Positions 1,241 to 60,208 of a stretch of DNA of 64,000 nt are shown here, piece after piece. The notes under the pieces were generated by a model. That model made no database searches. It was not told the origin of the DNA and saw nothing but the letters and a program-made list of their open reading frames with translations. The stretch is from Squalus acanthias. Lineage: Eukaryota. The stretch covers positions 17,050,001-17,114,000 of the forward strand of contig CM059452.1 in the NCBI GenBank assembly GCA_030390025.1, given 5' to 3'. The position numbers were made by a program, and so were the translations under genes. The number at the start of each line of letters is the position of its first letter. Positions within the stretch are counted from its first letter, which is position 1.

Positions 1241-1729
1241 TGTAATGTCTGTGGGAAAAGGTTTCAAACATCAGTGTGACTGGAAAAGCACCGAGACACA
1301 CACACCCGAGTGAGAGTGTGCCAGTGCACTGACAGTGGAAAGAGCTTTAACCAGTTACACAGCCTGAAAAAATATAGCACCATTCACAGCGGGGAGAAAC
1401 CGTACACGTGTTCTGTGTGTGGACAAGACTTCAACCGATCGTCCAACCTGGAGAGACACAAGGACACCCGCACCACGGAGAAACCGTGGAAATGTGGGGA
1501 CTGAGGGAAGGGATTCATTTTCCCGTCTGAACTGGAAATTCATCATTGCAGTAACACCGGGGAGAGACTGTTCACATGTTCCGAGTGTGGGAAGGGATTC
1601 ACTCAGTTATCCAACCAGCTCAAACACCAGCGAGTTCACACTGGGGAGAGGCCGTTCACCTGCTCCCTGTGTGGGAAGGGATTCACTCAGTCATCTTTCT
1701 TGCTGAAACACCACCGAATTCACAAGTGA
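1241..1729 (+). pseudogene. C2H2 (Kruppel-type) zinc-finger array pseudogene, ~6 fingers
   Basis: One frame reads CNVCGKRFQTSV*LEKHRDTH...HSGEKPYTCSVCGQDFNRSSNLERH...EKPWKCGD*GKGF...[55 protein letters not shown]-type linkers; in-frame TGA at 1277 and 1502 (the latter replaces a Zn-ligand Cys); several Cys/His ligands lost. Confidence 0.9.
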
Positions 1730-29734: not shown

Positions 29735-32700
29735 AGACTCAGTCAGGTCCAGACCGCCTCACCGGTCCATGTCCCAGACTACACCAGAACCTCTCACCAG
29801 ACACTGACCTAGATAGTACCAGATCATCCTTCAGCAACCACAGACCAGACTGAACAAAACGCTCCCTCACCGAGCCCTCCCCCAACCTAAATCAGACAAC
29901 CCTCACCAGTCCCTTTCCCAGACTAAAACAGAACTTCCCTCACCAGAAACTGTCCGAAACTGAACCAGACATTCCATCACCAGAAACCGCCTCACACTGA
30001 ATCAGACCCTAACACACGAGCCCCTGTCCCAGACTGAACCAACACTCCCACATCAGTCACTGTCCCAAACTGAAACACAACCTCCCTCACCAGCCCCTGA
30101 ACCAGATTCTCCCTCACAGCCCCTGTCCCAGACTGAACTAGACTCTCCCTCACCATTCCCTGGCCCAGACTGAACAAGACCATCACTCACCAGTCCCTGT
30201 CCCATACTGAACAAAACCCTCCCTCAACAGTTCCTGTCCCAGACTGAACAAGACCCTCCTTCAACAGTCCCTGTCCCAGATTGAACAAGCCTCACCCTCA
30301 CCATTCCCTGGCACAGACTGAACGATTCCCTCTCTCGCAAGCCCCTGTCCCAGATTTCACCAGACCCTGTTTCACCAGTCCCTGTTCCAGACTTAACCAC
30401 ACCCTGACACACAAGCCGCTGTCCCAGAGTGAAGCAGACCCTCCCTCACCAGTCCCTGTCCCAGACTGAAGCAAACTCTCTCTCACCAGCCTCTGTCCCA
30501 GACTGAACCAAACCCTCCCTCACCAGTTCCTGTCCCAGACTGAACCAGACCCTCTCTAACCAGCCTCTGCCCCAGACTGAACCAGACCCACCCTCACCAG
30601 TCCCTGTCCCAGGCTAAAACAGAACTTCCCTCACCAGAAACTGTCCGAAACTGAACCAGACACTCCATCACCAGAAACTGCCTCACACTGAACTAGACCC
30701 TAACACACCAGCCCCTGTTCCAGACTGAACCAACACTTCCACATCATTCACTGTCCCAAACTGAAACACACCATCCCTCACCAGCCCCTGAACCAGATTC
30801 TCCCTCACAAGTCACTGTCCCAGAGTGAACCAGACCCTCACCACCAGCCCCTGAACCAGATTCACCCTCACCAGTCCCTGAACCAGACTGAAACAGACCA
30901 ACACTCACAGCCCCTGTCCCAGACTGAACCTGACCTACCCTCACCAGTCCCTGTCCCAGACTGAAACAGACATACCCTCACCAACCCTTGTCCCAGACTG
31001 AACCTGACCATCCCTCGCAGCCTCTGTCACAGACTGAACCAGACCCTCCCTCACCAGCCTCTGTCACAGACTGAACCAGACCCTCCCTCACCAGCCCCCG
31101 TCCCAGTCTGAACCAGACCTACCCTCACAGCCCCTGTCCCAGACTGAACCAGACCCTCCCTCACCGGTCCCTATCCCAGACTGAAACAGACATACCCTCA
31201 CCAGACCCTGTCCCAGACTGAACCAGACCTACTCTCACCAGTCCCTATCACAGACTGAAACAGACATACCCTCACCAGCCCTTGTCCCAGACTGAACCTG
31301 ACCATCCCTCACCAGTCTCTGTCACAGACTGAACCTGACCCTACCTCACCAGCCCCTGTCCCAGACTGAACCAGCCCCTCCCTCACCAGCCCCTGTCCCA
31401 GACTGAACCAGACCCTCCCTCACCAGCCTCTGTCCCAGACTGAAACAGACCCTCACTCACCAGTCCCTGTCCCTGTCCCAGACTGAACCAGACCCTTCCT
31501 CACCAGCCCCTGTCCCAGACTGAACCAGACGCTCCCTCACCAGCCTCTGTCCCAGACTGAACCAGACCCTCACTCACCTCTCCCTGTTCCTGACTGAACC
31601 AGACCCACCCTCATCAGTCCCTGTTCTTGACTGAAACAGACCATCCGTCATCAGTTCCTGTCCCAGACTGAACTAGACCCTCCCTCACCCAACCCTGTCC
31701 CAGACTGAACCAGACCCTCCCTCACAATCACTGTACCACACTGAAAAAGACGCCTGTCACCAGTCACTTTTCCAGACTGAACGAGCCCCAAACTCACCAG
31801 CCCCTGTTACAGACTGAACCAGACACTTCCTCACCAGCCCTTATCCCAAACTTAACCAGACTCTCCCTCAACAGTCCCTGTCCCAGACTGACCAGACACT
31901 CCCTCACCAGACCCTTTCCAGACATAACCAGACCATCCCTCAACAGTCCCTATCACAGACTTAATCAGAGCCTGTCTCACCAGTTCCTCTCCCAGACATA
32001 ACCAGACCCTCCTTCACCAGACCCTATCCCAGACTTAACCAGACCCTGTCTCACCAGTCCCTGTCCCAGATTGAGCCAGAGCTCCGTCACCAGCTCATGT
32101 TCCAGACTGAACCAGATCCTCCATCACTAGCCGCTGTTCCAGAGAACGAGACCCTCATTCGCCAGTCCCTTTCCCAGACTGAACGAGACCATCCCTCCCA
32201 GCCCCTGTTCCAGACTGAACCAGACACTCACTCACCAGCCACTGTTCCAGAAAACCAGACCCTCATTCGCGAGTCCATTTCCCAGACTGAACCAGACCTT
32301 CCCTCATCATCCTTGTCCCAGACTGAACAAGACCCTCCATCACCAGTCCCTTTACAAGACTGATCCAGACCACCGCTCACCAGTCCCTGTTCCAGTCTGA
32401 ACCACATCCGCACTCACCAGACCCTGTTCCCGAATGAACCATACCCTCATTCACCAGCCATTATCCCAGACTGAACCAGACCCACCCTCCCCAGCCACTG
32501 TCCCAGACTAAACCAGACCCACCCTCACATGCCTCTGTGACGGACTGCACCAAACCCTCCCTCAGCAGCCTCTGTCCCAGACTTTCCCAGACCCGACCTC
32601 ACCAGCCCCTGTCCCAGATTGAACCAGACGTCCCGTCACCAGTCCCTCTCCCAGACTAAACCAGACTCAAGCTCACCAGTCCCTGCCCAGACTTAACCAG

Positions 32701-35700
32701 ACCCTCCCTCACCAGTCCCTGTCCCAGACTGAACCAGACCCTCCCTCACCAGTCACTGTCCAGACTTAACCAGACCTTCCCTCACCAGTCCCTTTCCCAG
32801 TCTGAACCAGACCCTCCCTCACCAGTCACTGTCCAGACTTAACCAGACCCTCCCTCACCAGTCCCTGTTCCAGAATGAAGCAGACCCTCCCTCACCAGTC
32901 ACTGTCCAGACTGAACCAGACCCTCCCTCACCAGTCACTGTCCAGACTTAACCAGACCCTCCCTCACCAGTCCGTATTCCAGACTGAACCAGACCTACCC
33001 TCACCAGTCCCTGTCCCAGACTGAACCAGACCCTCCCTCACCAGTCACTGTCCAGACTTAACCAGACCCTCCCTCACCAGTCCCTGTCCCAGACTGAACC
33101 AGACCCTCCCTCACCAGTCACTCTCCCAGACTAACCCGGTACATCCCTCACCAGTCCCAGTCCCAGACTGAACCAGACCCTCCCTCACCAGTCCCTGTTC
33201 CAGACTGAAACAGACCCTCCCTCACCAGTCACTGTCCAGACTTAACCAGACCCTCCCTCACCAGTCCCTGTTCCAGAATGAAACAGAATCTCCAACACCA
33301 GTTCCTGTCCCAGACAGAAACAGACCCTCCCTCGCCAGTCCCTGACTGAGACTGAAACAGACCCTTCCTCTCCAGTGTCTGTCCCAGACTGAAACAGACC
33401 CTCCCTCACCAGTCCCTGTCCCAGACTGAACCAGACCCTCACTCACCAGTCCCTGTCCCAGACTAACCAGACCCTCACTCACCAGTCACTGTCCCAGACT
33501 GAAACAGACCCTCCCTCACCAGTCCCTGTCCGAGACTGAACCAGACCCTCCCTCACCAGCCCCTGTCCCAGTCAGAAACAGACCCTCCATCACCAGCCTC
33601 TGTCCCAGACTGAAACATACCGTCCCTCACCAGCCCCTGTCCCAGGCTGATCCTGACCCTCTCTCATCAGCCCCTATCCCAGACTGATCCTGACCCTCCC
33701 TCGCCAGTCCCTGTCCCAGACTGATCCTGACCCTCCCACACCAGCCCCTGTCCCAGTCTGAAACAGACCCTCCCTCACCAGCCCCTGTCCCAGACTGATC
33801 CTGACCCTCCATCACCAGCCCCTGTCCCAAACTGAAACAGATCCTCCCACACCAGCCCCAGCCCCAGACTGCTCCTGACCCTCCATCACCAGCCCCTGTC
33901 CCAGACAGAAACAGACCCTCCCTCACCAGCCCCTGTCCCAGACAAAAACAGACCCTTCATCAGCAGCCCCTGTCCCAGACTGAAACAGACCCTGCCTCAC
34001 CAGCCTCTGTCCCAGACTGAAACAGACCCTTCCACACAAGCCCCTGTCAAAGACTGAAACAGACACTACCTCACCAGCCCCTGTTCCAGACTGAAACAGA
34101 CCCTCCCTCACCAGCCCCTGTTCCAGACTGAAACAGACCCTCCCTCACCAGCCCCTGTCCCAAACTGAAACAGATCCTCCCACACCAGCCCCTGCCCCAG
34201 ACTGATCCTGACCCTCCATCACCAGCCCCTGTCCCAGACAGAAGCAGACCCTCCCTCACTAGCCCCTGTCCCAGTCAGAAACAGACCCTCCATCACCAGC
34301 CCCTGTCCCAGACTGAAACAGACCCTCCCTCACCAGCCTCTGTCCCAGACTGAAACAGACCCTCCCACACCAGCCCCTGTCCCAGACTGAAACAGACCCT
34401 CACTCACCAGCCCCTGTTCCAGACTGAAACAGACCCTCCCTCACCAGCCTCTGTCCCAGACTGAAACAGACCATCACTCACCAGCCCCTGTTCCAGACTG
34501 AAACAGACCCTCCCTCACCAGCCTCTGTCTCAGACTGAAACAGACCCTCCCTCACCATCCTCTGTCCCAGACTGAAACAGACCCTCCCTCACCAGCCCCT
34601 GTTCCAGACTGAAACAGACCCTCACTCACCAGCCCCTGTTCCAGACTGAAACAGACCCTCCCTCACCAGCCTCTGTCCCAGACTGAAACAGACCCTCCCT
34701 CACCATCCTCTGTCCCAGACTGAAACAGACCCTCCCTCACCAGCCTCTGTCCCAGACTGAAAGAGACCCTCCCACACCAGCCCCTGTCCCAGGCTGAAAC
34801 AGACCCTCCCTCATCATCCTCTGTCCCAGACTGAAACAGACCCTCCCTCACCAGCCCCTGTTCCAGATTTAAACCGACCCTCCCTCACCAGCCTCGGTCC
34901 CAGACTGAAACAAACCCTCCCTCCCCAGCCTCTGTCCCAGACAGAAACAGACCCTCCCTCACCAGCCCCTGTCCCAGACTGAAACAGACCCTCCCACACC
35001 ATCCTCTGTCCCAGACTGAAACAGACCCTCCCTCACCATCCTCTGTCCCAGACTGAAACAGACCCTCCCTCACCAGTCCCTGTCCCAGACTGAAACAGAC
35101 CCTCCCTCACCCGTCCCTGTCCCAGAGTGAAACAGACCCTCCCTCACCAGCCCCTGTTCCAGACTGAAACAGACCCTCACTCACCAGCCCCTGTTCCAGA
35201 CTGAAACAGACCCTCCCTCACCAGCCTCTGTCCCAGACTGACACAGACCCTCCCTCACCATCCTCTGTCCCAGACTGAAACAGACCCTCCCTCACCAGCC
35301 TCTGTCCCAGACTGAAACAGACCCTCCCACACCAGCCCCTGTCCCAGACTGAAACAGACCCTCCCTCACCATCCTCTGTCCCAGACTGAAACAGACCCTC
35401 CCTCACCAGCCTCTGTCCCAGACTGAAACAGACCCTCCCACACCAGCCCCTGTCCCAGACTGAAACAGACCCTCCCTCACCAGTCTCTGTCCCAGACTGA
35501 AACAGACCCTCCCTCACCAGCCTCTGTCCCAGACTGAAACAGACCCTCCCACACCAGCCTCTGTCCCAGACTGAAAGAGACCCTCCCACACCAGCCCCTG
35601 TCCCAGACTGAAACAGACCCTCCCTCACCAGCCCCTGTTCCAGACTGAAACAGACCCTCCCTCACCAGCCTCTGTCCCAGACTGAAACAGACCCTCCCTC

Positions 35701-37908
35701 ACCATCCTCTGTCCCAGACTGAAACAGACCCTCCCTCACCAGTCCCTGTCCCAGACTGAAACAGACTCTCCCTCACCAGCCCCTGTTCCAGACTGAAACA
35801 GACCCTCACACACCAGCCCCTGTTCCAGACTGAAACAGACCCTCCCTCACCAGCCTCTGTCCCAGACTGAAACAGACCCTCCCTCCCCAGCCTCTGTCCC
35901 AGACTGAAACAGACCCTCCCTCACCAGCCTCTGTCCCAGACTGAAACAGACCCTCCCACACCAGCCCCTGTCCCAGACTGAAACAGACCCTCCCTCACCA
36001 GCCTCTGTCCCAGACTGAAACAGACCCTCCCACACCAGCCCCTGTCCCATACTGAAACAGACCCTCCCTCACCATCCTCTGTTCCAGACTGAAACAGACC
36101 CTCCCTCACCAGCCTCTGTCCCAGATTGAAACAGACCCTCCCTCACCAGCCCCTGTCCCAGACTGAAACAGACCCTCCCTCACCATCCTCTGTTCCAGAC
36201 TGAAACAGACCCTCCCTCACCAGCCCCTGTTCCAGACTGAAACAGACCCTCCCTCACCAGCCTCTGTCCCAGACTGAAACAGACCCTCCCTCACCAGCCT
36301 CTGTCCCAGACTGAAACAGAGCCTCCCTCACCAGCCCCTGTCCCAGACTGAAACAGACTCTCCCTCACCATCCTCTGTCCCAGACTGAAACAGACCCTCC
36401 CTCACCAGCCTCTGTCCCAGACTGAAACAGACCCTCCCTCACCAGTCCCTGTCCCAGACTGAAACAGACCCTCCCTCACCAGTCCCTGTCCCAGACTGAA
36501 ACAGACACTCCCTCACCAGCCCCTGCCCCAGACTGAACTAATCACTGCCTCAACAGCTCCTGTCCTAGACTAACCCAGATACTCCCTCGCCAACTAATGT
36601 CCCAGATAGATACAAATCATCCCTCACCAGCCCCTCTCCCAGACTAAACCATACATAGCCTCAACAGACCAGTCCCAGACTGAACCAGACCCTACCTCAT
36701 CAGCCCCTGTCCCAGACTGAACCAGACCCTCCCTCAACAGCCCAGTCCCAGACTGAACCAGACCCTACCTCATCAGCCCCTGTCCCAGACTGAACCAGAC
36801 CCTCCCTCAACAGACCAGTCCCAGACTGAACCAGACCCGACCTCATCGGCCCCTGTCCCTGACTGAACCAGACCCTCCCTCATCAGCCCCTGTTCCAGAC
36901 TGAACCAGATCCACCCTCACCAGTCCCTGTCCCAAACTGAACCAGACCCTCCCTCACCAGCCCCTGTTCCAGACTGAACCAGACCCTCCCTCAACAGCCC
37001 TGTCCCAGACTGAACCAGACCCTACCTCATCAGCCCCTGTCCCAGACTGAACCAGACCCTCCCTCATCAGCCCCTGTTCCAGACAGAACCAGACCTACCC
37101 TCACCAGTCCCTGTCCCAGACTGAACCAGACATAGCCTCAACAGCCATGTCCCAGACTGAACCAGACCCTCCCTCACCAGCCTCTGTCCCAGACTTTCCC
37201 AGACCCGCCATCACCAGCCCCTGTCCCAGACTGAACCAGACCCTCCCATACCAGCCCCTGTCCCAAACTGAAGCAGACCCTCCCACACCAGTCCCTCTCT
37301 CAGACTGACCTAGATCATCACTCACCGGCCACGGTCCCAGATAGAACCAGACACTCACTCACCAGCCCCTGTCCCAGACTGAACCAGACCCTCCCTCACC
37401 AGTCCCTGTCCCAGACTGAAGCAGACCCTCCCTCACCAGTCCCTGTGCCAGACTGAGCCAGACCCTCACTCACCGGCCACGATCCCAGATAGAACCAGAC
37501 ACTCCCTCACCAGTCCCTGTCCTAAACTGAACCAGACCCTCCCTCACCAGCCCCTGACCCAGACTAATCCAGACCCTCCATCACAAGCCCCTTTCCCAGA
37601 CTGGACCAGACGTCCCGTCACCCGACCATGTCCCAGACTAAACCAGACTCAACCTCACCAGTCCCTTTCCCAGACTTAACCAGACCCTCCCACACCCGTC
37701 CCTGTCCCAGACTGAACCAGACCCTCCCTCACCAGCCACTGTCCCAGCCTAATCCAGACCCTCCCTCACCCGTCCCGTCACCCGACCATGTCCCAGACTA
37801 ATCCAGACCCACCCTCACTAGTCCCTTTCCCAGATTGTACCAGACCAACCCTCACCAGTCCCCATCCCAGTCAGGACCAGCCCCTCCCACACCAGCCCCT
37901 CACCAGCC
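29735..37908. repeat. 37-bp satellite array (~220 units), most homogeneous at ~34.3-36.5 kb
   Basis: Consensus CCCTGTCCCAGACTGAAMCAGACCCTCCCTCACCAGC; ORF offsets are multiples of 37 (35218 vs 35477 = 7x37). Confidence 0.97.
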
Positions 37909-39960: not shown

Positions 39961-41455
39961 TAGAAACATAGAAAAATAGGCGCAGGAGTAGGCCATTCGG
40001 CCCTTCGAGCCTGCTCCGCCATTCAGTATGACCATGGCTGATCGTCTATCTCAATACCATATTCCCGCTCTCTCCACATACCCCTTGATGCCTTTTGTGT
40101 CTATAAATCTATCTATCCTCCTTCTTAAATATATTCAGTGACTTGGCATCCACAGCCTGCTGTGGTCGAGAATTCTATAGCTTCATCTCCCTCTGAGTGA
40201 AGACATTTCTCCTCATCTCAGTCCTAAATGTCCTACCCGGTATCCTGAGACTGTGACCCCTCGTTCTAGACACGCCAGCCAAGGGAAACATCCTCCCTGC
40301 ATCCAGTCTGTCTAGCCCTGACAGAATTTTATACGTTTCAATGAGTCCCCCTCTCATTCTTCTAAACTCTAGGGAATACAGGCCTAGTCGACCCACTCTC
40401 TCCTCGTACGACAGTCCTGCCATCCCAGGAATCAGTCTGGTGAGCCTTCGCTGCACTCCCTCTATGGCAAGTATATCCTTTCCTAGGTAAGGAGACCAAA
40501 ACTGCACACAGTACTCCAGGTGTTTTCTCACCAAGGCCTTGTATAACTGTAGTAATAGATGCTTGCTCCTGTACTCAAATCCTCTTGCAATGAAGGCCAA
40601 CATACCATTTGCCTTCCTAACTTCTTGCTGTACCTGCATGTTTGCTTTCAGTGACTCGTGCACATGGACACCCAGGTGCCTTTATACATCAACATTTCCC
40701 AATTTATCGCCATTTAAATAATACTCTGCCTTTCTGTTTTTCTATCGAAGTGGATAAATTCACATTTATCCAAGTTATACTGCATCTGCCATGTATTTGC
40801 CCACTCAATAAACTTGTCTAAATCGCCTTGAAGCCTCTTTTCATCCTCCTCACAACTCACAATTCCACCTAATTTCGTGTCGTCAGCAAACTTGGAAATA
40901 TTACATTTGATTCTCTCATCCAAATCATTGATATATATTGTGATTAGCTGGGGCCCCAGCATGGATCCTTGCGGTACCCCACTAGTCACCGCCTGCCACC
41001 CCGACAAAGACCCATTTATTCCTACTCTCTGTTTCCTGTCTGTTAACCAATTTTCAATCCATGCCAGTATATTACCCCCATTCCCATGTGCTTTAATTTT
41101 GCACACTAACCTCTTATGTGGGACTTTATCGAACGCCTTCTGAAAATCCAAATACACCACATCCACTAGTTCTCCCGTATCTATTCTACTAGTTACATCC
41201 TCGAAAGACTCCAGTTGGTTTGTCAAACACAATTTCCCTTTCATAAATCCCTGTTGACTTTTTTCTAATCCCCTTGATATTTTCTAAGTGTCCTGTTATC
41301 ACATCCTTTGTAATAGAATCCAGCATTTTCCCTTCTTCTGATGTTAGGCTAACCGTTCTGTACTTCCCTATTTTCTCTCCCTCCTGTTTTAAATAGTGTG
41401 GTTACATTTGCCACCCTCCAATCTGTAGAAACTGTTCCATGATCTATAGATTTTT
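39961..41455 (-). mobile_element. Younger CR1 LINE, RT domain + 3' end, with frameshifts
   Basis: DVVYLDFQKAFDKVPHKRL, SGVPQGSMLGP, ISKFADDTKLGG, LEYCVQFWSPY; TAGAAACA tail at 39961. Confidence 0.95.
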
Positions 41456-53514: not shown

Positions 53515-55470
53515 AATCATACAATCGTAGAAATTTACAGCACAGAAGGAGGCCAGCGTGTCTGTGCCGGCCGAAAAAGAGCTTTCCAGCCTCATGCCAC
53601 TTTCCAGCTCTTGGTCCGTAGCCTTGCAGGTTTCGGTAATTCAAGTGCACATCCAAGTACTTTTACAATGTGATGAGGGTCTCTGCCTCTATCTTCCTTT
53701 CAGGTAGTGAGTTCCAGACCTCCACCACCCTCTGGGTGAAATAAAGTTCTCCTCAAATCCCTCTAAACCTCCTACTAATTACTTTAAATCTATGCCCCCT
53801 GGTCATTGATCTCTCTGCTAAGGTAAATAGATCCTTCCTATCCACTCTATCTAGGCCCCTCATAATTTTATACACCTCAACAACGTCGCCCCTCAGCCTT
53901 CTCTGTTTCAAAGCAAACAACGCCAGCCTATCCAATCTTTGCTCATATTCTCCAGTCCTGGCAACATACTCGTAAATATCCGCTGTACCCTCTCTACTGT
54001 AATTACTTCTATCTGTAATGTGGTGACCAGAACAGTAGGAGGTACCTTAGCTGTGGCTTAACCAATGTTTTATTTAGTTCAAACATAACCCTCCCTGCTC
54101 TTATATTATATGCCTCGGCTAATAAAGGAAACTATCCCGTAAGCCTTATTAACCACCTTATCTACCTGTCCTGCTACCTTCAGGGATCTGTGGCCATGCA
54201 CTCCAAGGATCCTCTTTTCCTCTACATTAGTTGTGTATTCCCTTGCCCTGTTAGCCCCCCCCCCCCCCCCACAAATGTATTACCTCACACTTCTCCGGAT
54301 TGATTTCTATTTACCACTTTTCTGCCCACTTGACCAATCTGTTGATATCTTCCTGCAGTCTACAGCTTTCTTCATCACTGTCAACGACACGGCCAATTTA
54401 TTTATCATCTGCAAACTTCTTAATCATGCCCCTACATTGAAGACTAACTCCTTGATATATACCACAAAAAAACAAGGGACCCATAACTGTGCCATCAGGT
54501 ACCCCACTGGAAATAAAATTCCAGTCACAAAAACACCCGTCGACCATTACCCTTTGTTTCCTGTCTCTGAGCCAATTTTGGATCCAACTTGCCACTTTCC
54601 CTTGGATCCCATGGGCTTTTACTTTTCTGACCAGACTGCCGTGTGGGATATTGTGAAAAGCCTTGCTAAAATCCATGTAAACTACATCAAACGCACTACC
54701 ATCATCAACCCTCCTTGTTACCTTCTCAAAAAATTCATACACGGTAGTCAGACTTGAACTTCTATACACACATCCATGCTGACTGTCCTTGATTAATCCG
54801 TGGTTTTCTAAGTAAAGATTAACACGATCCCTCAGGATTTTTCCAGTAATATTCCCACCACCGAGATTAGCAGACTGGAATGTAATTGCTCGCTCTTTCT
54901 TTTTCTCCGTTTCTAAACAATGATACAACTTTAGCTGTCCTCCAGTCCTCTGGCATCACACCTGTAGACAGAGTGGATTTGAAAATTATGATCAGAGTCT
55001 ACGCTTATTTCCTCCCTTGCCTCTCTTAACAGCCTGGGACACACTTCAACCGGGCCTGGCGATTTATCTACTTTCAAATATGCTCAACCCATTAATACTT
55101 CCTCTCTCACAATGTTTATCTCATCTATTATTTCAAACATCCTCCTCCGTAACTAAAATGCCTGCATCGTCCGACTCTTTTTTGAAAGCAGACGGAAAGT
55201 AATGATTAAAAACCATAACAACGTCTTCTTCCTCCACAAACAATGTACCTTTATGGTCTTTAATAAGCCCCCCTGTTTCCTTAGTTACTCTCTTGCTCTT
55301 TAAGTATTTATAAAACACCTTTGGGTTTTCATTGATGTTACTTGCCAATATTTGTTCATGCCCTCTCCTTACGTTCCTAATTTCACCCCTGCACTTTCTA
55401 TACTCTTCTAGGCTTTCTGCAGTATTTAGCTCTCTGTATCTAACATAAGCTTCCCTTTTTGCCTCAGCTT
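53515..55470 (-). mobile_element. CR1 LINE, ~2 kb ORF2 remnant
   Basis: NINENPKVFYKY, DVVYMDFSKAF, WIQNWLRDRKQRV, KFADDK, RLRGDVVEVYKIMRG. Confidence 0.93.
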
Positions 55471-57749: not shown

Positions 57750-57803
57750 ATTGGTCCCTCACTCCGCCCCATGCAAATGAGCCCAGTCTCTCGAGGCTTA
57801 TAA
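57750..57803 (+). promoter_or_regulatory. IgNAR V promoter: inverted CCAAT, GC box, octamer, TATA
   Basis: ATTGG 57750-57754, CCGCCC 57764-57769, perfect ATGCAAAT 57771-57778, TATAA 57799-57803, ~95 bp upstream of the leader ATG. Confidence 0.85.
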
Positions 57804-57896: not shown

Positions 57897-57939
57897 ATGC
57901 ATATTTTCTGGGTTTCGGTCCTTTTAGCCTGGTTACCAA
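57897..57939 (+). CDS. IgNAR: IgNAR leader exon
   Basis: MHIFWVSVLLAWLP + phase-1 donor A|GTAAGT at 57940; typical IgNAR signal peptide (SVLLAWLP). Confidence 0.95.
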
Positions 57940-58079
57940 GTAAGTGTTGTTTAATAAAGAGATTAAATGTTAATTGGATAAAATTGTGCGGCAGCGTCTA
58001 CATTGCGGAAATTGCCCTGCCTTTAAACTCTCGTATTGTTTCAGATACGCGATGTATTAAATATATTTTCTCCATTCAG

Positions 58080-58353
58080 ATGCCTTCGGTACAAGAGTAG
58101 ACCAAACACCAAGAACGGCAACGAAAGAGACAGGAGAATCCCTGACCATCAACTGCGTCCTAACTGATACCAGCTATGGTTTGTACAGCACATCCTGGTT
58201 CCGGAAAAATCCGGGTACAACAGACTGGGAACGCATGTCGATTGGCGGCCGATATGTCGAATCAGTCAACAAGGGAGCAAAGTCATTTTCTCTGCGAATC
58301 AAGGACCTAACAGTTGCAGACAGTGCCACGTATTATTGCAAAGCTCAAAGCTG
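58080..58353 (+). CDS. IgNAR: IgNAR V segment (germline, type IV/IIb, no non-canonical Cys)
   Basis: Acceptor TTCAG| at 58079; open frame (N)[90 protein letters not shown]; short VNAR domain with no CDR2. Confidence 0.98.
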
Positions 58354-58392
58354 CACAGCAGTGGAGGAGGCGGTCCCTGCAATACACAAACT
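58354..58392 (+). other. V 3' RSS, 23-bp spacer
   Basis: CACAGCA - 23 nt - ACACAAACT. Confidence 0.93.
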
Positions 58393-58581
58393 ATCAGCAC
58401 ACTTTGTTACAAGAACAAGGGCACTATTTATCTTTTACTTAATCATGAAGAGAAGATCCTGAGTATTTTGGAGGGATAACACTCTTGGTTATAAAAGAAA
58501 CCCTGACAAGAAGTATTGAGGTAGGAATCTGGTTTGCAGTAAGTGCCTCGACCTGAGGCTCTCGCACTAATGCACATGGGA

Positions 58582-58661
58582 CCTTTTTGTACTGGTCTCT
58601 GTGACTGTGTGGCAATCAGATACCACAGTGATGAATCTTGGATTCCCGTAATACATAAACT
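58582..58661 (+). other. IgNAR: IgNAR D1 (58610-58623, TGGCAATCAGATAC) with 12-RSS 5' and 22-RSS 3'
   Basis: CCTTTTTGT-12-GACTGTG [D1] CACAGTG-22-ACATAAACT. Confidence 0.93.
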
Positions 58662-58987
58662 GTCCCCACACCTCTTAATACAAAGTTAATACAGGTTATT
58701 CTCTCGGTGGCTAATAACCTCACGGTTAAATGCTCATTGTCTCTGTCAGACACTGGCTGACATATTAAAGCCTTTTCTCTATTAATTTCCGTGATATTTC
58801 TATCAATATTACGGTCATATTTATAATGGAACATTGATATTTCTCCAGGACTTTTATGAATGGCTGGGAATTATAACCGTCTACGGGGATCCCAATATAA
58901 AGGCAATGATTTGAATCATATTTACTGCAATTTTCAATCAATATCTTGGAATATCTGAAGGATTTTCTGTGATGTTTGCAACAATGG

Positions 58988-59055
58988 AGTTCTTGTGCTG
59001 GTGTGAAATGATGTGTATACTGGGTGACACAGTGACTCGGGCCATAGCACAAACC
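58988..59055 (+). other. IgNAR: IgNAR D2 (59016-59027, TATACTGGGTGA) with 12/12 RSSs
   Basis: AGTTCTTGT-12-TGATGTG [D2] CACAGTG-12-GCACAAACC. Confidence 0.9.
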
Positions 59056-59366
59056 TCTCCAACAGTTATCTGTTATCCTACTCATGGAGGTGGCTGCATA
59101 ATGTGCTTCTTGCTCATGGATGTTACTGCATAGAGCTTGAAATCAATTCCAGTTCGACCTTTGGTTGAAATCGATCCGCATTCCCTGATGTTAAATCAGT
59201 GGATTATCTTCTTCAGTGTTACAGGAGTTCGCATTGCAAATATTGAATGTCTGGTGGAGAGAAACTGACGGAAAATGAAGATTTACCAATGACTCCAATA
59301 TATCTGGAAGGTCCGAGGAGCGGTGATGATTTGTTGTATTAATTACCGGACCTTTGCTTCAATGAC

Positions 59367-59405
59367 CCTTTTTGAACTGGGCTGACTGGGAGCTGACTGA
59401 CTGTG
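59367..59405 (-). other. J 5' RSS, 23-bp spacer
   Basis: CCTTTTTGA - 23 nt - GACTGTG. Confidence 0.92.
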
Positions 59406-59446
59406 TTACTATGACGGAGCTGGCACCGTGCTGACTGTGAACTCTG
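59406..59446 (+). CDS. IgNAR: IgNAR J segment
   Basis: YYDGAGTVLTVNS followed by phase-1 donor G|GTAAGT at 59447. Confidence 0.97.
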
Positions 59447-60208
59447 GTAAGTGACCTCTCTTGCTGCTTTATTGATAAGATTTTGATGCTAGAATTTGAA
59501 AAGAATCAGTGTTGTCGTTAAAATGGCCTGAAGCGCAAAATGCAATAGCCGAAGCTCTTTTTGAAGACTCGGTTAGGTTCACTGTCAATTTATTTGGCAT
59601 AAACTTAAAAATGGTTTTCAAAAGAGATTTTGCCCGTCAATAAAATAAACCTGTATTTAAATATATAACTTCCGTCCAAACAAACCCGTATTTAAATATA
59701 AAACTTACCTGTCATGCATTATTTAAGATGCTTATTTGAATAGATTGTGATAGTTTAAATAGTTTAAACGGAACCAGCCCAGTAAAGTTACTCCTTACTG
59801 AGGTGTCCCAGTACATCTTTGATATACAGTATATCTGATTCGAAGAATTAAAACAATTATTGGAACAGGAACATTTGCTGCAAACAAGGAATGAATACAA
59901 CGTGTAATTTTATAAAATGTTCCCTTGGAAAATCACCCCTCTATATAAAACAATGACTACTAAATTAATATCGGCACAGATCCTGCAAATATGTTGTCAC
60001 TTCGAATCGTGTCATTTGTTGGTCGGGATTAATGGCGCACACTTCAGTGACCGAGCTGTAACTCTGAGGAAGCTCTTTACATGAAAGCCAGTCCCCGAGA
60101 CATCCGTATTTGAGCTTATCGACGCGTTCTGTGCGTAAGATTAAGCGAGCAGCAGAGAACTTTGAAACTACAGTGGGTTTCAGTGTAATAAGTGGGCTCT
60201 GTTTTAGT

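What the first reader, a model, noticed from the sequence alone, without database searches (positions are those of the whole stretch)
57897..59446. Germline IgNAR cluster with only two D segments (IgM-like V-D-D-J)
Seen: V(23)-(12)D1(22)-(12)D2(12)-(23)J, with gaps of 256, 392 and 378 bp. I find no third RSS-flanked D. Known: the textbook nurse-shark IgNAR cluster has three D segments, whereas the 12/22 + 12/12 two-D layout is that of shark IgM clusters. Inference: this cluster needs only three joins and could skip D1 (V23 to D2-12) or invert D2, favouring shorter CDR3s. It may be an ancestral state or reflect D loss or germline D-D fusion.
Basis: partly seen in the sequence, partly recalled or inferred. 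Interest (0 to 1): 0.75.

Follow-up and report, generated by a model that had tools for sequence, protein, structure and literature searches.

The report
Two-D dogfish-type shark nanobody gene
This shark single-domain antibody (IgNAR-type) gene has two small diversity segments instead of the textbook three, and related copies in several other shark data sets are spaced the same way, so two is likely the normal, old layout in this lineage rather than an assembly error or a one-off.

Summary
Observation confirmed: leader, VNAR-type V (best hits Squalus acanthias VNARs), V(23)-(12)D1(22)-(12)D2(12)-(23)J, gaps 256/392/378 nt. Two D cassettes occur in 0 of 1000 shuffles; no third or fossil D was found. 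Contigs from 8 of 23 listed runs (six organism labels) are collinear with this spacing, including one 3-kb contig across V, D1, D2 and J, so an assembly deletion is unlikely and the layout is old. Two expressed CDR3 fragments from paralogues fit D1/D2 alone. D skipping and inversion are equally allowed in three-D clusters and were not seen; shorter CDR3s are not shown. IgNAR clusters with two free Ds are already in print as D-D fusions (nurse shark type III, three bamboo shark clusters). What is likely new is a lineage whose standard type IV/II clusters carry two short Ds; ancestral state versus ancient loss or fusion is unresolved. The constant exons lie outside the window, and the dogfish repertoire paper (Smith 2012) could not be read. 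The scan earlier noted four- and five-D IgNAR clusters on other DNA, not this layout. New variant of a known kind; interest 0.42.

The parts
57771..57778 (+). Octamer ATGCAAAT, with a TATAA at 57799-57803: likely V promoter
   Evidence: motif match only; function inferred
57897..57939 (+). Leader exon, ATG to GT donor at 57940
   Evidence: tblastn to IgNAR leaders; a 57939 to 58080 GT..AG splice joint in run X9
58080..58353 (+). VNAR V exon: open frame, two canonical Cys, no CDR1 Cys or Trp (type IV / IIb pattern)
   Evidence: 87% identity to VNAR 3B4 and 83% to the 4hgk VNAR, both labelled Squalus acanthias
58354..58392 (+). V 23-RSS (heptamer CACAGCA)
58582..58609 (-). D1 5' 12-RSS
58610..58623 (+). 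D1 coding, 14 nt; forward frames encode no Cys and no stop
58624..58661 (+). D1 3' 22-RSS
58988..59015 (-). D2 5' 12-RSS (weak heptamer CACATCA)
59016..59027 (+). D2 coding, 12 nt; no Cys in forward frames, one frame ends in a stop
59028..59055 (+). D2 3' 12-RSS
59367..59405 (-). J 23-RSS
59406..59446 (+). IgNAR-type J, open frame, GT donor at 59447
   Evidence: 10 of 10 residues identical to the 4hgk VNAR FR4

Best explanation
This is an intact-looking germline V-D-D-J cassette of a dogfish-type shark heavy-chain-only antibody (IgNAR, type IV/IIb V) that has two D segments, shares that spacing with related clusters in six organism labels, and likely builds its binding loop by three deletional RAG joins instead of four. 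Shown: the segments and signals, the absence of a third D, and collinearity of paralogues and relatives. Inferred: V-D1, D1-D2 and D2-J are joined inside the cluster with N additions, giving a Cys-poor CDR3; this copy has C1-C5 downstream of the window and is used. On origin I commit, narrowly, to this: IgNAR D number changes by tandem gain or loss of the 12/22 D block, two Ds is the old state kept in this lineage, and three or more Ds arose by duplication elsewhere. RAG activity in the germline has since pre-joined V-D1 or D2-J in some sister clusters.
For: RSS anatomy and shuffles. Run X16 (organism F): one 3006-nt contig collinear over 58230-59213 (84 other letters, 6 gaps) and 59335-59494; X17 (G) and X19 (H) tile the same spacing; X6 record 18 spans D1 and D2 (58491-59098). 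X9 record 32 spans D2 to the J RSS (58940-59406) and X12 record 11 spans the V RSS to D1. Both Ds are short, 12-17 nt in the variants readable from indel tables. One in-frame CDR3 fragment in X9 reads as the 8-nt end of a paralogous D1, one extra base, then a pre-joined D2-J; a second holds 12 of 13 nt of a D2 variant, then 10-13 unassigned nt, then J (table 7, read by eye). In X6 a paralogous J is spliced to an exon whose translation, read by eye, resembles the start of IgNAR C1 in P0004-P0006. The same V-D1 junction letters stand in DNA run X1 and in X9; the same D2-J junction letters stand in DNA runs X1 and X5 of two studies.
Against: No contig is this exact copy throughout: the best run holds 0.49 of the words and all listed contigs differ at 57900 and 59329, so the read check tests the family, not this allele. 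In X16 and X17, 121 nt of the D2-J gap are replaced by 120 letters I could not see. X5 has an unexplained 100-nt loose end at 58526 and a longer (20 nt or more) D2-like variant. Clusters under 80-85% alike, such as a three-D type III, would not have been laid. Only 2 CDR3 fragments, both from paralogues. No constant exon in the window. No three-D cluster or batoid outgroup could be fetched, so the direction of change is untested; a germline D-D join or an unequal crossover would also leave no remnant. A review cites dogfish type III clusters as not germline-joined (PMC4622739, passage), which implies germline data that I could not read.
Confidence: 0.55

Rival explanations
1. Ancient loss: an ancestor had three Ds, and one was removed by a germline RAG D-D join (as in nurse shark type III) or by unequal crossover before these clusters multiplied and these species split. 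It works the same way today; only the history differs.
For: Germline joining is active in this family (V-D1 and D2-J joints). D-D pre-joining is reported for nurse shark type III (PMC4622739, PMC3149040, passages) and 3 of 4 complete bamboo shark clusters (PMC8692893, section 26). Either route leaves no RSS remnant, matching. X5 shows a longer D2-like variant.
Against: D1 and D2 are only 12-17 nt, single-D size by inference, though trimming could give this. The same spacing holds across six organism labels.
Confidence: 0.3
2. The cassette is not a working IgNAR but a NAR-TCR V-D-J module or an orphan without constant exons.
For: No C exon within 4.55 kb of J. The cassette sits next to about 36 kb of satellite DNA. 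The spliced contigs come from paralogues.
Against: V and J best match IgNAR chains at 80-87%. Leader, splice sites, frames and RSS are intact. A J-C distance over 6 kb is reported for nurse shark IgM (PMC2435157). A close paralogue's J splices to a C1-like exon.
Confidence: 0.07
3. Assembly deletion of a D block, or a third D too decayed to see.
For: Tandem D blocks can collapse in assemblies (inference). No single contig of the best-matching organism spans the whole stretch.
Against: Independent contigs bridge each gap at the same length, and no joint goes back or inserts a block. No paired RSS remnant.
Confidence: 0.04
4. A recent, copy-specific D loss or fusion in an otherwise three-D family.
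For: Partly joined sister clusters exist. Reviews state three Ds per cluster in the species studied (PMC4279169, passage).
Against: Every paralogue and relative laid shows the two-D spacing.
Confidence: 0.04

Closest known systems
Canonical IgNAR cluster, 1V-3D-1J-5C (nurse shark types I and II; white-spotted bamboo shark IgNAR1), PMC4622739 and PMC8692893
   Same: VNAR-type V, IgNAR-type J, one V and one J within about 1.5 kb, 12-, 22- and 23-bp spacer classes.
   Different: Two Ds and three joins instead of three and four. V and both Ds lack non-canonical Cys. Constant exons not visible here.
Nurse shark type III IgNAR (D1-D2 fused, 'clustered with 2-D segments') and bamboo shark IgNAR2/5/6 with pre-joined Ds (PMC3149040, PMC4622739, PMC8692893)
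   Same: Two free Ds and three rearrangements.
   Different: There the state is an exception explained by D-D fusion, and type III has CDR1 Trp and Cys. Here V has neither, both Ds are short, and the spacing is shared by all related clusters seen.
Shark IgM minilocus VH-D1-D2-JH, including partly germline-joined VD-J and VD-DJ forms (PMC2435157, PMC5192425)
   Same: Two Ds, segments 250-400 nt apart; partial germline joins in sister clusters. The 12/22 plus 12/12 spacer pattern of IgM is recalled, not confirmed by a call.
   Different: V is a VNAR, not a VH; no light-chain partner is expected; the likeness is in layout only.
Squalus acanthias VNAR scaffolds (PDB 4hgk, 7spo/3B4, 7spp/2C02)
   Same: FR2 to FR3 identical to 3B4 over about 50 residues; FR4 identical to 4hgk. 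From recall, untested: the naive dogfish clone 2V used as a library scaffold has this V.
   Different: Those are rearranged or synthetic domains; this is an unrearranged germline cassette.

Membership tests
IgNAR cluster (broad sense) | Single V exon of VNAR type | tested here: met
   top hits are VNARs and IgNAR chains at 80-87% identity
IgNAR cluster (broad sense) | IgNAR-type J and RSS-flanked V-(D)n-J minicluster, 'up to three D' (PMC5192425) | tested here: met
IgNAR cluster (broad sense) | C1-C5 exons downstream of J | tested here: inconclusive
   none in the 4.55 kb to the window end; no genome held; a paralogous J is spliced to a C1-like exon
IgNAR cluster (broad sense) | Secreted or membrane homodimer without light chain | not testable with these tools
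   needs protein work
Canonical three-D IgNAR (nurse shark type I/II) | Three RSS-flanked D segments | tested here: not met
   two cassettes only; collinear contigs
Type IV (IIb) VNAR | Only the two canonical Cys; none in CDR1, FR2, FR4 or the D frames | tested here: met
   the V tail ends in TG, so an untrimmed junction could still make a Cys codon
Type III IgNAR with fused D1-D2 | CDR1 Trp next to a CDR1 Cys | tested here: not met
   neither residue in CDR1
Type III IgNAR with fused D1-D2 | One D is a germline D-D coding joint | tested here: inconclusive
   Ds are short, but no three-D cluster was available to align
Shark IgM minilocus | VH-type V that pairs with a light chain | tested here: not met
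   V is a VNAR
Shark IgM minilocus | Two D segments between V and J | tested here: met
   PMC2435157 Introduction
NAR-TCR module | J spliced to a supporting TCR-delta V | tested here: inconclusive
   nothing downstream in the window; the only J splice seen leads to a C1-like exon

The most novel reading that the evidence does not exclude
Two Ds is the ancestral IgNAR layout, the same as IgM, and is kept across dogfish-like sharks. The textbook three-D cluster is then a derived tandem duplication of carpet sharks and kin, part of a series running from two to five Ds. This lineage also carries inherited V-D1-joined and D2-J-joined IgNAR clusters, a kind of partial join that I found described for IgM but, for IgNAR, only as D-D fusion.
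Probability: 0.35. Interest if true: 0.62.

Novelty: new variant of a known kind. Interest (0 to 1): 0.42.

Why it matters
Reviews explain the long, diverse VNAR CDR3 by three Ds and four joins in every cluster (PMC4279169, PMC4622739). A lineage with two Ds as its norm shows that this is not a fixed property of IgNAR, and makes the question of what sets VNAR loop length (D number or N addition) directly testable by comparing repertoires. It also bears on how IgNAR arose from IgM/IgW-like and NAR-TCR parts. In practice it gives germline V, D and J references for the dogfish-type scaffolds used in VNAR engineering. The impact is limited to comparative immunology, and two-free-D clusters already have precedents.

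Tried and rejected
No whole genome is held, so sister clusters and C exons could not be mapped. Fossil duplication between the gaps: 42 local alignments gave only RSS-to-RSS matches and one inverted match (58728-58832 against 59227-59332, p about 0.01 uncorrected, not significant over 42 tests); one search found only short chance-level repeats. An RSS-like string just before the J RSS (59329-59356) was rejected: it lacks CAC and leaves no room for a D. Protein searches gave no natural dogfish repertoire for CDR3 mapping: 15 near-length hits, mostly PDB constructs, and cluster representatives only; the 4hgk CDR3 is too short to assign. The metagenome scan for a related locus found none among 169 pattern matches. 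One search listed no holder on record as RNA (several are guessed RNA), which is no evidence on expression. Contig depths were not used as copy numbers or expression levels. The bacterial promoter scan is irrelevant here. Smith 2012 (PubMed 22040740) and Kovalenko 2013 (PMC3682541) are not held. A paper search for a V peptide found nothing. No structure or complex prediction was run; neither bears on D number.

Full report
Observation. The window holds one antigen-receptor cassette, on the plus strand near its right end. A leader exon (57897-57939) splices to an open V exon (58080-58353). D2's 5' signal is the weakest (three heptamer mismatches) and was missed by my first scan. At five total mismatches the two D cassettes are the only ones in 64 kb, and 0 of 1000 shuffles gave two. 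Inside the three gaps a very relaxed scan found no more sites than shuffles (2, 6, 7 against 4.0, 5.3, 6.3) and no facing pair. No decayed V end or duplicated block was found.

What it is. The V matches VNARs: 87% to 3B4 and 83% to the 4hgk VNAR, both labelled Squalus acanthias, and 80-84% to IgNAR chains of three other sharks. J matches the 4hgk FR4 at 10 of 10 residues. V, both Ds (forward frames) and J lack non-canonical Cys, the type IV (IIb) pattern. An octamer and a TATA-like motif lie upstream. No constant exon lies in the remaining 4.55 kb and no genome is held, so 'IgNAR' for this copy rests on V and J. In run X6 a paralogous J is spliced at 59446 to an exon whose translation, read by eye, resembles the start of IgNAR C1 in P0004-P0006.

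Is two-D real and how widespread? I laid 8 of the 23 listed runs, all as contigs. X12 record 11 covers the V signal to D1, X6 record 18 covers D1 and D2 in one piece, and X9 record 32 covers D2 to the J signal. In organism F a single 3006-nt contig is collinear from V through D2 (84 other letters and 6 gaps in 984 nt) and again over J; organisms G and H tile the same spacing at roughly 88-92% identity. No joint goes back or inserts a block. This makes an assembly deletion or a recent single-copy loss unlikely. The limits are real. No run holds this exact copy throughout (best share 0.49). In F and G, 121 nt of the D2-J gap are replaced by 120 letters that the tool did not show. X5 has a 100-nt loose end at 58526 and a D2-like variant of 20 nt or more. 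The output tables were cut to their best rows. Clusters below the 80-85% thresholds would have been missed.

Sister clusters. One search shows a V-to-D1 joint (58348 to 58622) in DNA run X1 with the same junction letters in X9, a different organism label. It shows a D2-to-J joint (59023 to 59407) with the same nine letters in DNA runs of two studies (X1, X5), in frame with J by my reading. Identical junctions in separate animals point to inherited joins. A third V-D1 joint stands in X12 at depth under 5 and may be somatic or an error.

How it works. By the 12/23 rule the productive deletional route is V-D1, D1-D2, D2-J; V-D2 skipping and four inversions are also legal. The same options exist in three-D clusters, and a review describes shark Ig rearrangement as deletional (PMC5192425). 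Two CDR3 fragments were visible in X9 (table 7, read by eye). One is in frame and reads as eight bases of a paralogous D1 end, one extra base, then the pre-joined D2-J. The other keeps 12 of 13 bases of a D2 variant, followed by 10-13 unassigned bases and J. Neither needs a third D, but two fragments from paralogues are not a repertoire. Untrimmed germline pieces sum to 50 nt, about 17 codons, between the FR3 Cys and the J Gly. Published dogfish CDR3s are mostly 13-18 aa (PMC2213646), about half of bamboo shark clones are 15-16 aa (PMC12865624), and a nurse shark study puts the median near 20 (PMC6312525). Definitions differ, so a shortening effect is possible against nurse shark but not shown.

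Origin. Three routes fit: two-D ancestral with later tandem gains, ancient loss by unequal crossover, or an ancient germline D-D join. Short Ds and shared spacing across six organism labels favour an old state. Unchecked notes from this scan describe four- and five-D IgNAR clusters made by tandem duplication of a block of about 450 nt in another genome; these are leads, not evidence. Without a three-D sequence or a batoid outgroup I could not test direction, and I favour the ancestral reading only slightly.

What is known. Reviews give three Ds per cluster (PMC4279169, PMC4622739, PMC12907318) or 'up to three' (PMC5192425). Two-free-D clusters are in print as fusions: nurse shark type III (PMC3149040, PMC4622739) and three of four complete bamboo shark clusters (PMC8692893). 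PMC4622739 cites Smith 2012 for dogfish type III clusters not being germline-joined; that paper is not held and may already state the dogfish D count. Ten full-text searches turned up no paper, among those I opened, that describes a two-D ground plan or V-D1 or D2-J joins for dogfish IgNAR; most subscription journals are not in the library. What I saw: passages of PMC12227049, PMC4622739, PMC5192425, PMC12907318, PMC4279169, PMC13474390, PMC11767079, PMC2213646, PMC2193153, PMC3149040, PMC3457774, PMC12865624 and PMC6312525; passages and the Introduction of PMC2435157; passages, section 26 and the supplement's legends of PMC8692893, whose cluster figure with the D layout is a picture that I could not see. 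The 12/22 spacer pattern of IgM D1 and the name 2V are recalled.

Verdict. It is a new variant of a known kind: an IgNAR-type cassette with two short Ds as the likely norm of its lineage, not a canonical three-D cluster and not an IgM. Interest 0.42; the ancestral-layout reading has probability 0.35 and would deserve about 0.62.

Noticed in passing
window 58348-58622 (runs X1, X9) and 58333-58623 (run X12): Sister clusters with V joined to D1 while D1 keeps its 22-RSS; the same junction letters in X1 and X9 suggest an inherited VD-D-J IgNAR.
   Followed up: partly
window 59023-59407 (runs X1, X5; loose ends in X9): A sister cluster with D2 joined in frame to J in DNA runs of two studies; one X9 contig uses it in an in-frame CDR3, so this V-D-DJ cluster is likely expressed.
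   Followed up: partly
window 59214-59334 (runs X16, X17): 121 nt replaced by 120 unseen letters in organisms F and G; nearly the same stretch has a weak inverted match to 58728-58832 (not significant after 42 tests). Could be a small inversion or plain divergence.
   Followed up: partly
window 58526 and 59024 (run X5): A 100-nt unrelated loose end in the V-D1 gap, and a longer D2-like variant (20 nt or more) with two Cys codons; the latter might be a D-D fusion or a type I/II-like D.
   Followed up: no
window 59405-59413 (runs X1, X5, X6, X19): Several J variants with 4- to 9-nt 5' extensions; one in X1 seems to carry an in-frame stop.
   Followed up: no
window 58518-59215 (run X6): A GT..AG joint that skips both Ds, and unrearranged J spliced to a C1-like exon: likely sterile germline transcripts.
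   Followed up: no
window 57771-57803: Ig-type octamer ATGCAAAT and a TATA-like motif about 100-125 nt before the ATG.
   Followed up: no
window 1-37900: Satellite arrays: 46-nt unit (18 copies), 67-nt unit (about 409 copies, 2190-29583) and 37-nt unit (about 221 copies, 29757-37900); the 67-nt unit throws many single RSS-like hits but no D cassette.
   Followed up: no
window 40717-41283 and 54401-54955, minus strand: Reverse-transcriptase (PF00078) fragments, likely LINE remnants.
   Followed up: no
window 1554-1724: Two copies of an 84-nt unit, the period of C2H2 zinc-finger repeats; the one frame scanned gave no Pfam hit.
   Followed up: partly
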